64,000 bases of DNA from Octopus vulgaris. Taxonomy: Eukaryota. Shown one piece after another: positions 4,526-58,552 of the stretch. Positions within the stretch are counted from its first letter, which is position 1; each line of letters opens with the position of its first letter. The notes beneath the pieces are model-generated. The model was given only the letters and a program-made list of their open reading frames with translations, was not told the origin of the DNA and did not search any database. Made by a program: the position numbers and the translations under genes. Location: assembly GCA_951406725.2 (NCBI GenBank), contig OX597818.1:126108001-126172000 (forward strand), written 5' to 3'.

Positions 4526-5150
4526 TTAACCCTCCAACGCAGAGTATAGGCCACTTATAGTTGAATTCCATGCCGCATAATGTTTGGCTTCTGTACTAAT
4601 ACTCTGCCATGAATGTCCCCCTTTCTCTAGTTTCTTTTGTGTTGATCTCCGCCACGAGCTCTTAGGCCTACCTCTCCTTCTATATCCAACCGGTTTCCAC
4701 TTTAAAGCACTTTTCGCTACATTTGGTGTGTCTTTTCTAATCGTGCTACCAATCCACTTCCACTTTTTCTTAAATATTTGCTCCCTAATCGAAACTGGAT
4801 TTGTTCTTTGCCATAGCTCCATACTGCTTATGTGTTCGGGCCATCTAATTTTAAGTATACTACGCAAGCATCTGTTGATGAATGATTGTATTTGCTTATT
4901 TGACTTAACTGTTGTTCGCCATGTCTCAGCTTTTACGTTAGTGTTAAAAATTCTTATTTTGTTCTTTATTGAAATTACACTTGCGCTCCATACTTTTTTT
5001 TTAACAGGTGAAAAGCGGTCCTTGCCTTACTTATTCTCGTCTTAATATCTTCGTCGGTGCCGCCTGAAAACGTTATCTTACTACCTAAATACGTAAACTC
5101 GGCTACATCTCCTAGTTCACCGGTTTCTAGTTTAATACGTTCGCTGTTTT
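4526..5150 (-). mobile_element. RTE-clade LINE, RT C-terminal fragment
   Basis: VAEFTYLGSKITFSGGTDEDIKTRISKARTAF (5010-5140) and LRSILKIRWPEHIS...WKWIG...ALKWKP.G.RRRGRPK.SWRR (ORF 4526..4867). Confidence 0.88.
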
Positions 5151-9806: not shown

Positions 9807-10758
9807 GAACGCTGATGAGAAGTCAAAATACGAACTTTAGAATGCCGAAATGTTAAATAAAACAGAGAAAATATCCACATACATACACGTGGTGGGTGAT
9901 GGTGGCGGCGGAGTACAGGGTGAGAGAATGGCTCAAAGATGTGTTTCTATGGAAACATAAAATTTCCTATCTTTGGTACGTTTCCTCTCATAGTTTCTCA
10001 CTTTATTATTGGGTATAAATACACACACACACACAAGCACATACGCACGCACACATACTTATAAGTATGCATGCATGCCTGTATGTGTGTGTGTATGTAT
10101 ATATGTATCCAAGGTCGACTTTACCTTTCATCTTTTCGGGGTCGATAAATTAAGTACTAGTTACGCACTGGGGTCGATGTAATCGACTTAATACCTATGT
10201 CTGTCCTTGTTTGTCCCCTCTGTGTTTAGCCCCTTGTGGGTAGTAAAGAAATATATACGTATGCACGTATGCTGGAATGTATGCGAGCCAAGACGTTCTT
10301 TCATGATGGAGGTATGAATGATATTGATAGATGAACCCTTTCTGAGAGACGGATACATACGCGCCACACACACACACATTTATGTGTGCCCACGCGTTTG
10401 CGCGTGTCTATGCATATAAGTAACATATCCAATGAAATGTGTATGTAAAGGTGAGAAAGATAGATGTAGGGAGAAAATAAAAAAAAAAGATGAAGCAGAG
10501 AAACAAAGAGAAAACTGAGAGAGTGAGAGAGAGAAAGAGAGAGAGAGAGAGAAAGCGTGTGTGAGTGAAACATATAGAGAGAAATGTGTACTTGTATGTG
10601 TGTGCGTATACGTGTGTGTGTGAATGTGTGTTTATACGTATACGAGGATGCGCTCAAGGAAAGGAACAGTTAGAATGTCATGCTAGTAGTACCCAATAAC
10701 CAGGCCAGTCAGTGTATATGCGCCAAGTTCGAGATTGTATATACATTCGCACGTACGA

Positions 10759-15622: not shown

Positions 15623-16003
15623 ATAAGAAGAAAGGGTAACATTGATTAATTAAGAAGTAATCAATAATTTCACCAAGTAGAATTCGGCATGAAAAAGGAC
15701 CATTTCACGGTAAACTTAAGTAATACTTTATAATTAGGGTTCAGCAAAGATTTGCTTTACCACATACCGAAGTTTAGAAATAGCAGCCAAAAAACCTTAG
15801 CTATTTCTTCTACTTTAAAAGGGACTCCCACCAAAATAAAAGTTCTTGAAGTACTCTCTGCCTGTGTAGATTGTTTTCAAGTACTTTGATTTTTCTGGTA
15901 GTCCCTTTTAAAGTAGAAGAAATAGCTAAGGTTTTTTGGCTGCTATTTCTAAACTTCGGTATGTAGTAAAGCAAATCTTTGCTGAACCCTAATTATAAAG
16001 TAT
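15617..16003 (-). repeat. fold-back element in (TA)n, ~105-bp inverted arms
   Basis: Arms 15723-15830/15896-16003 with about 2 mismatches, plus a single-copy tail 15617-15722. Confidence 0.85.
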
Positions 16004-19114: not shown

Positions 19115-19171
<57 letters not shown>

Positions 19172-19175
<4 letters not shown>

Positions 19176-19459
19176 CGATATTTGCCATTTGAATATGGCT
19201 AACCCCTAAGGGTGGATGCTACTGTAGTTTGTAGCCCCAGGAAGATATCTCCTCCAGCTGGCTATAGACACACTATCTGTGTCCTCTCAGTATCTAGAGG
19301 ACACAAATAGTGTGTCTATAGCCAGCTGGAGGAGATATCTTCCTGGGGCTACAAACTACAGTAGCATCCACCCTTAGGGGTTAGCCATATTCAAATGGCA
19401 AATATGCGTCACGATGTGTTACTGCTACTGTTTATAACTCGCTCTGAGATTTATCATTG

Positions 19460-19461
<2 letters not shown>
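19172..19461 (+). repeat. near-perfect 116-bp fold-back element in (TA)n
   Basis: Arms 19172-19287/19296-19412 with 1 mismatch and 1 indel, an 8-nt loop and a tail to 19461. Homologous to 49441-49555. Confidence 0.92.
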
Positions 19462-19500
<39 letters not shown>

Positions 19501-29381: not shown

Positions 29382-29634
29382 AAGTAATGAGAGAGAGTCC
29401 ACATGTGGTAACTTTAACGCTAGATATAGATGCACGAAGAGAATCTACCACTAATTTCTTTAGTGGTAGATTCTCTTCGTGCATCTATATCTAGCGTTAG
29501 AGTGACCACATGTGGACTCTCTCTCATTACTTGTATTAATAATTTTTACTGTATCCCAGTCTTTATACGCTAGGCCACTTAGTGTTTTAAATTGAGGTTA
29601 TTAATTAATTTTCAATTTTTTCACCCTTATTGTG

Positions 29635-29638
<4 letters not shown>
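29382..29638 (+). repeat. fold-back element in (TA)n, ~73-bp arms with a 4-nt loop
   Basis: Arms 29382-29454/29459-29532. Tail 29533-29638 is homologous to the ends of HHR elements at 51575-51641 and 59422-59500. Confidence 0.88.
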
Positions 29639-29713
<75 letters not shown>

Positions 29714-34990: not shown

Positions 34991-35565
34991 AATGTAGCTA
35001 TCCACTTAACTAAACAGGGATGAAAATAGACAGATTGAGGGAGAGCGAGTGGGCAAGTGAGAGAGAAAGAGAGAGAGAAAAAGAGAGAGAGAGAGAATGG
35101 GTGAGAAAGTAGAAGAGGTGCTGGAAGTAGGTGTGATAATAAAATGTATTTCTTTACTACCCTCAAGGGGCTAAACACAGAGGGGACAAACAAGGACAGA
35201 CAAACGGATCAAGTCGATTACATCGACCCCAGTGCGTAACTGGTACTTAATTTATCGACCCCGAAAGGATGAAAGGCAAAGTCGACCTCGGCGGAATTTG
35301 AACTCAGAGGTCGACTTTTTACTTTCATCCTTTCGGGGTTGAAAAATTAAGTACCAGTTACGCACTGGGGTCGATGTAATCGACTTGATCCGTTTGTCTG
35401 TCCTTGATTGTCCCCTTGTGGGTAGTAAAGAAATACATTTTATTATCACACCTACTTCCAGCACTTCTCCTACTTTCTCACCCATTCTCTCTCTCTCTTT
35501 TTTTCTCTCTCTCTCCCTCAATCTGTCTATTTTTGTCCCTGTTTAGTTAAGTGGATAGCTACATT
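34991..35565. repeat. large inverted duplication of SINE B 3' part plus non-SINE flank
   Basis: Arms 34991-35289/35307-35565 with a 17-nt spacer. Confidence 0.9.
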
Positions 35566-39520: not shown

Positions 39521-40327
39521 TATATATATATATACATACACGTTTTTTTCGCGCGTATGTGGAAAGAAAGTGAGGGAGATAAAGAGAGTCTATCATACGC
39601 TTAATGTTGTATACGATAAGATTAATCACTGACCTCACAAATACTTATGATTCATAGAAACAGAATTTTATCTCAATTATTTCTTGTATTTAATTCATCG
39701 GGTGTGGGACCAGAATACCCCATCGCTCGTTCGACCTTCTCTCTATAGTCACCGATCTTCTTTCGAATAAACACTTTACAGTCTTTCAGAAAGGGAATCC
39801 ACTTATGTTTTAAGCTCCGAAAATATCACAAATGGTATGCCGTAGGTCAAATGTCAGATAGTCAGGATTTATGAGACATTCTCCTTTTAAACAGTCTCAA
39901 CCACTTTTCACCATGTTTTTCGTCATGTCGCCCACATCAGACCTACAAACATCTACTTGTTTGTCAAGTAACGAACGCATGACGGCTGTCTAAAGCAACA
40001 GCGACTTTGCCTCATTTTTTTGTGTGTTTGTTTCACAGACGACCGTTTCAAATAAGACAGGAATACTTGAGGCTTCTTTGTGTCATTCAAAGAATTACCA
40101 GACACGAGCCCTCCTGCCCCAGTCTATTTACCAGTCACATCGATCCTGATGGACGTGTTTATATACTTCCAACAATAACAGCTACTAAACAATTCACGTC
40201 TGCTCTTTTTCAAAATGCATTTCGTGGTGAACTGTTACAGCTACGAAGCTTATTTCTCGTGTCCGTCATCAGAAGGGAAAGAGACTTAGAGGAGTTGGAA
40301 GTAGAAAATAAGGAAAACAGAATGCAA

Positions 40328-44702: not shown

Positions 44703-44902
44703 TACAGTTCTATATTTAAGAGATGAGGAATTATGTATATTATTTACATTTGACGGATATTTGTCCTCATCTTGTTTGTTGTTAACACAACATTTCGGCT
44801 GATATATCCTCCAGCCTTCATCAGGTGTCTTGGGGAAATTTTTAACCTCGATTCTCATTCCTAAGGTATTTTTCGATGTTGTTGTTGTTGTTGTTATTAT
44901 TA

Positions 44903-47895: not shown

Positions 47896-47945
47896 CAAAA
47901 ACTGTCTGATGAACGGCAACGAGAAACTCAGAGTAACAGATTTTG
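47896..47945 (+). ncRNA. type I HHR motif in TA-flanked element 47885-48043
   Basis: caaaaactgt-CTGATGA-acg gcaa cga-GAAAC-tcaga-GTA-acagattttg. AATAAA lies ~20 nt downstream. Confidence 0.75.
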
Positions 47946-49089: not shown

Positions 49090-49440
49090 CCTTCTATATA
49101 ATAAATTAATTTTACTCTGCTATGTATTGAGTACCTTATTTACTGTGGTTAACCCCGAATCAACCCGGGACCTACATATATATATATATATATATATATG
49201 TATATTGCTATACGAGTGTGGAACAGTGGGTATGATAGGAGCATGCCAAGACATTTAAAACCAAAGGAAAAACATAGATAGGTCGACCATTCATGTCACC
49301 CTTGCAAGAAGCGTTACTGTTGTCACCCCATCACCTGCCACCCGACCACCTGCCAAAGATGGCATCATTATAAAGTAAATGAGCAAATTGCTATGACATC
49401 CACATTTGCATATACGTATGTATAAATATATATATATATA

Positions 49441-49677
49441 TATTTGCCATTTCAATATGGCTACCCCTAAGGGTGGATGCTACTGTAGTTTTTAGCCCCA
49501 GGAGGACACACTCCTCCAGCTGGCCATAGACACACTTTCTGTGTCCTGTCAGTATTTGCAAAGGGAAGTCATCCTTCCCGTCTTCAACTTATGATACACA
49601 CGGACTCGAGTTTCGAGGTATTGACCTCTCGTCAGCGTGTGACAATCACAGTTGTCGCCGAGAATTAGATCTCCTTC

Positions 49678-49681
<4 letters not shown>
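49441..49681 (-). mobile_element. PLE pLTR-like element in (TA)n
   Basis: Carries an HHR; 49441-49555 is homologous to the hairpin arm at 19179-19293. Confidence 0.75.
49597..49641 (-). ncRNA. canonical minimal type I hammerhead ribozyme
   Basis: cacacg-CTGACGA-gaggt caat acctc-GAAAC-tcga-GTC-cgtgtg. All stems are perfect; stem III is the palindrome actcgagt. Confidence 0.9.
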
Positions 49682-49743
<62 letters not shown>

Positions 49744-50874: not shown

Positions 50875-50920
50875 AACACAACGTTTCGGCTGATATACCC
50901 TCCAGCCTTCTTCAAGTATC
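50875..50920 (-). ncRNA. second copy of the SINE-tail HHR (core decayed)
   Basis: gatac-tTGAAGA-a-ggctgg agggtata tcagcc-GAAAC-GTT-gtgtt, within body 50828-50970. Confidence 0.55.
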
Positions 50921-50967
50921 TTGGGGAAATTTCGAACCTCGGTTCTCATTCCTCAGGTATTTTTCGA

Positions 50968-51710: not shown

Positions 51711-51716
<6 letters not shown>

Positions 51717-51910
51717 TAGTAAAAAGTGAAAAAACTACAGAAGGCTTGTTTTAAAAGGTTAAAAAATATATATTTGTTTGAGTCATTCTTCAGACATAAT
51801 GAATCAAACAAATATATATTTTTTAACCTTTAAAACAAGCCTTCTGTAGTTTTTTCACTTTTTACTATTTTCTATATATTCAACCACGTGCTTTCACACA
51901 CCAACTTTCT

Positions 51911-51914
<4 letters not shown>
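51711..51914 (+). repeat. fold-back element between (TA)(GA)n and (TA)n, ~76-bp arms
   Basis: Arms 51711-51787/51798-51873, tail to 51914. Confidence 0.88.
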
Positions 51915-51974
<60 letters not shown>

Positions 51975-58215: not shown

Positions 58216-58261
58216 CCATTATACATACACACACACACACACATTTATATATATATAATTC

Positions 58262-58393
58262 TTTTTCAAAATGAGATAAAAAACCGAGGCTGTGAAGATT
58301 TTAAAACATTTATAAATAGAATGTAACTGTAAGACCTATTGATAAATATTGTAAAATCTTGACAGCCTTGGTTTTTTATCTCACTCTGAAAAA
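58262..58393. repeat. diverged fold-back, ~58-bp arms, after (TA)n
   Basis: Arms 58262-58319/58336-58393 with several mismatches. Confidence 0.75.
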
Positions 58394-58552
58394 AAAGATA
58401 TTTATATACACAGGCTGGTATATGACCTACGTTGGACTCCTTATTCGTGTAATCACCGAACCTGGAGCTTAACTATGGTGTGTCAATAGCACTTACTCAG
58501 CATTACCTGACACCTTTGGGTCTTATTGACACCATTACCTCTCATAACCTTG

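What the first reader, a model, noticed from the sequence alone, without database searches (positions are those of the whole stretch)
19172..19461. 116-bp near-perfect hairpin is the folded-back 3' part of the HHR element at 49441
The arm is homologous to 49441-49555. The fold-back point (gtcct.tcagtat) lies about 45 nt 3' of that element's HHR cleavage site, so this copy has lost the ribozyme. This links the hairpins to the HHR elements. It fits PLE-type 5' truncation with an inverted pLTR piece, or self-primed snap-back cDNA synthesis (inference).
Basis: partly seen in the sequence, partly recalled or inferred. Interest (0 to 1): 0.7.

Follow-up and report, generated by a model that had tools for sequence, protein, structure and literature searches.

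The report
Penelope-style head-to-head retrozyme insertion
The hairpin is two partial copies of a 352-base ribozyme-bearing repeat joined head to head; they were likely pasted in together by a Penelope-like retrotransposon copying from two fixed start points, a known pattern that this family shows very clearly, and the ribozyme does not set the fold point.

Summary
The hairpin is real in the assembly: 116/117-bp arms, 8-nt loop, two differences. It comes from a young subfamily of a 352-nt tandem hammerhead (HHR) repeat (non-LTR retrozyme). The 49441 copy is an older relative (89-91% identical), not its source.

The fold point lies 48-54 nt past the HHR cut site but is not fixed: in 83 such insertions inner ends scatter over ~700 nt, and only 3 fold at 40-60. 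The outer ends are fixed: one arm ends at unit position ~170, the other at ~216-219 (83 of 100 head-to-head insertions; none with two 170 ends). This 46-nt offset is the Penelope 'tail'. Targets are (TA)n, with 9-16-bp duplications where resolvable. Both arms share subfamily alleles (288/310, versus 59% permuted).

Best reading: a Penelope-like enzyme primes both cut target ends, one per start site, on one template, and joins the cDNAs. Snap-back alone cannot supply the tail but may help the join. The architecture is known; the one-of-each pairing and single-template evidence were not found in my searches. Side finds: a Tx1-like element targeting this repeat; two retrozyme-Penelope chimeras joined at ribozyme cut sites.

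The parts
19116..19171 (.). left (TA)n target
   Evidence: sequence
19172..19293 (-). inverted short-end arm: unit positions 170 to 48 (1-nt deletion near the outer end); carries the loop sequence
19294..19295 (.). 2-nt junction insert
   Evidence: overlap -2
19296..19461 (+). long-end arm: unit positions 54 to 219; two private substitutions against the family majority
19413..19461 (+). 46-49-nt Penelope-type tail (unit 171-219), present on one arm only
19462..19497 (.). right (TA)n target; a duplication cannot be resolved in pure TA
49440..49690 (-). single copy of an older subfamily (unit 265 through the HHR to 163; 89% to the young unit), between (TA)n tracts
49597..49641 (-). type I hammerhead ribozyme with palindromic stem III; predicted cut between 49603 and 49602
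   Evidence: motif scan; covariation in relatives read by eye from the alignment; dimer fold

Best explanation
The hairpin is one insertion of a 352-nt hammerhead-bearing repeat, made of two 5'-truncated arms joined head to head, likely written by a Penelope-like (PLE) enzyme that primed both cut ends of a (TA)n target on one RNA template. Shown here: the family, the two fixed outer ends used one each, the scattered inner ends, the TA targets, target duplications of about 13 bp, and shared alleles between arms. Inferred: the endonuclease cuts both strands about 11-14 nt apart; one 3' end starts cDNA at unit position ~170 and the other at ~216-219; both cDNAs stop early and are joined by microhomology or short templated fill-in, sometimes after a brief fold-back. 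The ribozyme was lost because both cDNAs stopped about 50 nt short of it.
For:: 83 of 100 head-to-head insertions (among 170 loci) pair a 163-177 end with a 212-221 end; 0 pair two short ends, 1 pairs two long ends, 16 have one unclassified end. In loci picked by an internal 28-mer (L031-L100), 32 of 37 are one-of-each (counted); non-trivial target duplications of 9-16 nt in 11 of 83 (0.18 in shuffled pairs); most others lie in pure TA; arms agree at 288 of 310 polymorphic comparisons against 59% permuted (0 of 2000), while 234 rare differences are not shared (19 shared), so this is not later homogenisation. Microhomology of 2 nt or more at 44 of 65 non-insert junctions against about 16% expected (null). 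An autonomous RT+GIY-YIG PLE in the same genome shows the same one-of-each ends in 8 of 9 head-to-head pairs, in TA targets. Published: inverted 5'-truncated copy plus 30-40-bp tail is PLE-typical (PMC8557442, PMC3846280); a PLE protein cuts and extends both strands, and the tail is the stretch between two RT start sites (PMC11167929).
Against: The partner enzyme was not identified: the 775-aa PLE shares no sequence with the repeat, and its tail (~31 nt) and that of a second PLE (~34-40 nt) are shorter than 46 nt. 70 of 170 loci have no inverted arm, so the second priming is not obligatory or often leaves no trace. Inner ends are coupled (27 of 83 within 30 nt against 12.6 +/- 3.1 permuted; peak with the short arm 13-26 nt further), which fits fold-back copying as well as two RTs in tandem. 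Loci L001-L030 were chosen for a full long end and L101-L180 for a short end, so one end of each is fixed by selection. L032 and L034 share one junction and are probably one event. Microhomology counts rest on BLAST ends and may be somewhat high.
Confidence: 0.65

Rival explanations
1. Hybrid snap-back: both target ends are primed, but most of the long arm is a fold-back copy of the short-end cDNA, captured by a short cDNA primed at the long-end site.
For: In 62 of 83 the short-end arm reaches more than 10 nt further 5' (51.6 +/- 2.6 permuted). Apices sit at natural palindromes or show templated fold-back inserts in L119, L162, L146 and L326. Both arms of two chimeric insertions share the same chimeric junction. 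This hairpin (offset 6) fits the class.
Against: 15 of 83 have the long arm reaching more than 10 nt further, up to 524 nt, and many offsets are 100-600 nt. Shared private variants are not clearly higher in near-symmetric insertions (2 in 2021 bp against 3 in 6252 bp; low power).
Confidence: 0.22
2. One reading: one cDNA snaps back on itself at a point set by the ribozyme or by RNA structure next to it.
For: Near-perfect arms; loop on one arm; excess of short-arm inner ends in the 20 nt after the cut site.
Against: The arm without the loop has 46 nt absent from the other arm. Only 3 of 83 fold at 40-60, and 38 of 83 run through the HHR.
Confidence: 0.05
3. Assembly artefact (fold-back read) or a later palindromic duplication of an older single copy.
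For: Perfect palindromes are a known long-read artefact (recalled). The window hairpin at 35097 includes non-element flank and may be of that kind.
Against: An artefact would be symmetric and include flank; here the arms stop at two family-specific positions and differ at two sites. Target duplications surround 11 such pairs. Contigs of another run join the two orientations at four other points, and show the 170 end followed by TA.
Confidence: 0.05
4. L1-type twin priming by a LINE, such as the Tx1-like element found inside this repeat.
For: An APE-RT element is closely associated with the repeat. L1 twin priming gives 5' inversions (recalled).
Against: Twin priming gives adjoining, non-overlapping pieces with a variable inverted end; here the arms overlap and the inverted end is fixed. 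The Tx1-like element inserts into the repeat, not into TA. No poly(A) tail.
Confidence: 0.03

Closest known systems
Animal non-LTR retrozymes (PMC7229834; bioRxiv 10.64898/2026.07.22.740005)
   Same: Non-coding tandem unit of 352 nt, 43% GC, one type I HHR per unit with a palindromic short stem III, dispersed monomers to trimers.
   Different: Circular RNA and self-cleavage not tested here. In the passages I saw, those papers do not describe head-to-head arms, tails or target duplications, and leave the mobilising enzyme as a candidate.
Endonuclease-positive Penelope-like elements (PMC8557442, PMC3846280)
   Same: 5' truncation, partial tandems, inverted 5'-truncated copy, optional tail at one end, (TA)n targets, short target duplications.
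   Different: No ORF; tail 46-49 nt rather than 30-40; no sequence match to the one PLE unit tested in full here.
Poseidon PAc in vitro mechanism (PMC11167929)
   Same: Two internal RT start sites delimit the tail; both target strands are cut and extended; the HHR is not needed for insertion.
   Different: That study saw no difference in start site between strands and did not address inverted arms. Here the two ends of one insertion use different sites almost without exception, and there is a modest footprint of HHR-cut templates.
L1 twin priming (recalled)
   Same: Two primers on one RNA, joined by microhomology, giving an inversion.
   Different: Arms overlap in sequence and both outer ends are fixed.

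Membership tests
Non-LTR retrozyme | Tandem unit of about 170-400 nt | tested here: met
   352-nt spacing; arms up to 786 nt
Non-LTR retrozyme | Type I HHR in each unit | tested here: met
   Motif and at both cut sites of L017; stems I-III vary in paired fashion across 71-97% relatives, read by eye. Not among the 150 Rfam rows shown of 326.
Non-LTR retrozyme | No protein-coding capacity or LTR | tested here: met
   352-nt unit only; no ORF of 130 aa or more at either window copy
Non-LTR retrozyme | Self-cleavage and circular RNA in vivo | not testable with these tools
   Indirect only: pile-up of inner ends at 1-20 and two chimeras joined at the cut site
PLE-mobilised insertion | Inverted 5'-truncated copy head to head with the main copy | tested here: met
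   100 of 170 loci
PLE-mobilised insertion | Tail on one end only | tested here: met
   83 of 100 pair a ~170 end with a ~216-219 end
PLE-mobilised insertion | AT-rich target with short duplication | tested here: met
   TA flanks; 9-16-nt duplications in 11 of 83; unresolvable at this locus
PLE-mobilised insertion | Identified autonomous partner with related pLTR | tested here: inconclusive
   No match to one PLE unit; no PLE ORF near 20 motif loci; a second PLE linked only through two chimeras
Autonomous PLE | RT plus GIY-YIG ORF | tested here: not met
   The element is non-coding; such an ORF exists elsewhere in the genome

The most novel reading that the evidence does not exclude
PLE insertion is an obligately asymmetric two-primer reaction: a dimer cuts both strands about 13 nt apart and assigns one target end to each of two fixed start sites on the same RNA, which yields tail, inversion and hairpin in one step. 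Retrozymes ride this reaction, and ribozyme-cut retrozyme and PLE RNAs are spliced or template-jumped end to end in vivo, while a Tx1-like element has evolved to target the retrozyme itself.
Probability: 0.4. Interest if true: 0.72.

Novelty: new member of a known kind. Interest (0 to 1): 0.48.

Why it matters
How PLEs make their inverted copies and tails is described as unresolved (PMC8557442), and PLE mobilisation of retrozymes has been argued from co-occurrence and phylogeny. This short, young family gives a countable record: one of each start site per insertion, one template, a ~13-nt stagger and a 13-26-nt offset between stop points. These are direct predictions for the published in vitro PLE assay. 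Such insertions also scatter long perfect hairpins through the genome. The single hairpin itself is an ordinary product of this process.

Tried and rejected
Raw-read confirmation: all 24 listed runs were contigs and no RNA holder was on record. No listed contig of the 7 runs laid bridged this apex; a hole proves nothing. Rfam: the 150 rows shown of 326 were all microsatellite-driven miRNA matches. The repeat finder was swamped by simple repeats. Partner search: the 775-aa PLE has no match to the repeat; a 16-nt hairpin motif gave 11,720 hits, but of 20 regions fetched none held a PLE or Tx1 ORF and 16 were a Helitron-like family. The reciprocal chimera pattern hit 2 loci, both old retrozyme copies and not chimeras. 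The idea that the Tx1-like element mobilises the repeat was rejected on target and structure. Earlier findings of this scan: none returned. No literature search on the chimeras was completed. Supplements of the papers were not read and may hold relevant insertion data.

Full report
Observation. The stem is 19172-19287 against 19296-19412, with an 8-nt loop, one bulge and one mismatch. Both arms match 49440-49555 at 91%. A type I HHR lies on the minus strand at 49597-49641 with its predicted cut between 49603 and 49602. (TA)n flanks both sides. The genome is a 2.8-Gb assembly of 227 contigs.

Family. A search with 19289-19461 found 2094 candidates; the 40 scored were 98-100% identical and included 19413-19461, so that stretch is element and not flank. 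The unit is a 352-nt tandem repeat with one HHR. I numbered it from the first base after the cut, using a natural monomer from L017. The hairpin is unit 170-to-48 inverted, a 2-nt insert, then unit 54-to-219. It is 98-99% identical to the young subfamily; the 49441 copy is 89% identical and older. An internal 28-mer has 467 exact matches. 104 places end exactly at 170 against TA, 85 at 173, and 284 read through. In relatives 71-97% identical, stem III stays palindromic and stems I and II change in pairs, read by eye.

Fold point. Of 170 unique loci (180 fetched, 10 duplicates dropped), 100 are head to head and 70 are not. In 83 the outer ends are one at 163-177 and one at 212-221; none has two short ends, one has two long ends, 16 have one unclassified end. 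Selection fixed one end in L001-L030 and L101-L180; in L031-L100, chosen by the internal 28-mer, 32 of 37 are one-of-each. Inner ends scatter from -522 to +200. Only 3 of 83 fold at 40-60, and 38 of 83 keep the HHR core. There is a modest excess of short-arm inner ends at 1-20 (13 of 48 at risk against 54 of 633, p=3e-4; long arms 6 of 27 against 69 of 677, p=0.057; single copies 4 of 45). This suggests that some templates were ribozyme-cut (inference). This hairpin is not in that class.

One event, one template. Non-trivial direct repeats of 9-16 nt (median 13) flank 11 of 83 pairs, against 0.18 in shuffled pairs; most others, including this one, sit in pure TA. Arms agree at 288 of 310 polymorphic comparisons against 59% permuted, and successive units in one arm at 95 of 99. 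234 rare differences are unshared and 19 shared (1.2 expected), so arms are not being homogenised. 35 of 100 junctions carry inserts, often templated; 44 of the other 65 have 2 nt or more of microhomology against about 16% by chance.

Snap-back. A single cDNA folding on itself cannot give a second arm that extends 46 nt beyond the first. Yet inner ends are coupled: 27 of 83 lie within 30 nt (12.6 +/- 3.1 permuted), mostly with the short arm 13-26 nt further, and 62 of 83 have the short arm more than 10 nt further (51.6 permuted). Some junctions show fold-back inserts. Two RTs in tandem on one RNA and fold-back copying captured by a second short cDNA both fit; I could not separate them.

Context in the genome. 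A young autonomous PLE (775-aa RT plus GIY-YIG, 4271-bp unit) has the same one-of-each ends in 8 of 9 head-to-head pairs, with a ~31-nt tail, but no sequence match to the repeat. The window hairpin at 51714 is the 3' end of a second PLE family (6 of 19 loci carry ORF pieces; 13 of 19 pair a short inverted end with the long end). The hairpin at 29383 belongs to another tandem family with a ~100-nt offset (about 10 of 19 loci). So the window's hairpins share a mechanism, not this HHR element.

Independent data. In one search, contigs of run X21 join the two orientations at four other points (sides 23-42 nt), and contigs of X21 and X10 show the 170 end followed by TA. This supports the class, not this locus.

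Literature. PMC8557442 (passages): inverted 5'-truncated copy, 30-40-bp tail and (TA)n bias are PLE features, mechanism undefined. PMC3846280 (passages): head-to-head pLTRs with 8-10-bp duplications, self-priming proposed. PMC11167929 (passages and whole main-text section): both strands cut and extended, tail equals the gap between two RT start sites, HHR dispensable in vitro. PMC7229834 (passages) and bioRxiv 10.64898/2026.07.22.740005 (abstract, introduction, part of methods and passages): retrozymes, with PLEs as candidate or likely parents. PMC4494074 (passages): Tx1 families target transposons, small-RNA genes and repeats. Searches listed no paper that appeared to quantify paired ends in retrozyme insertions; searches listed none on a Tx1 targeting a retrozyme. 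The library lacks most subscription journals and Repbase entries. L1 twin priming, Helitron end motifs and the U3-A8 HHR variant are recalled, not from a call.

Verdict. Observation confirmed; interpretation partly supported. It is a PLE-type insertion of a retrozyme-like repeat: a new member of a known kind, with unusually clean population evidence on mechanism. Interest 0.48.

Noticed in passing
L078:1370-6253; L215-L244: A ~4.9-kb Tx1/L1-like element (CCHC ORF1; APE, RT, zf-RVT ORF2) sits inside the repeat at unit 294-313, just 5' of the HHR, with an ~18-20-bp duplication. 27 of 30 loci found by its 3' end abut the repeat (5 were already known), including 71-80% diverged subfamilies and one tandem insertion. 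Likely a target-specific family; clade not tested by tree.
   Followed up: partly
L267:1228-1623; L326:1237-1645: Two independent head-to-head insertions join the repeat's HHR cut site (unit 352) to the second PLE right after its own putative HHR GTC, in both arms, with different repeat variants. Suggests ligation or template jumping between ribozyme-cut RNAs; n=2, 3-nt ambiguity, only this exact junction was searched.
   Followed up: partly
L245:840-3164: Very young autonomous PLE: many of the 150 scored matches tie in score with 775-aa open frames; a second 454-aa open frame lies upstream without a Pfam match.
   Followed up: partly
window 51714-51915: Hairpin plus ~40-nt tail from the 3' end of a second PLE family; its putative HHR has a UUGAAAA core, read by eye.
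   Followed up: partly
window 29383-29640: Hairpin from another tandem family with two preferred ends ~100 nt apart; no HHR found by motif scan.
   Followed up: partly
window 15726-16000, 58259-58396, 34991-35565: Further long hairpins. The first two lie next to TA tracts; the third includes SINE-like and flanking sequence on both arms and looks like a fold-back duplication.
   Followed up: no
window 44784-44824 (-), 50917-50956 (-), 47906-47935 (+), 9812-9855 (+), 40246-40272 (-): Other HHR-like motifs unrelated in sequence to this repeat; 44784 and 50917 lie in two copies of one family.
   Followed up: no
L305-L322: An abundant Helitron-like non-autonomous family (ends recalled as Helitron-type) carries a ~55-nt piece of an older form of the repeat (unit 111-163); 16 of 20 sampled regions.
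   Followed up: partly
window 4526-5026 (-): Open frame resembling a LINE RT C-terminal fragment, by eye.
   Followed up: no
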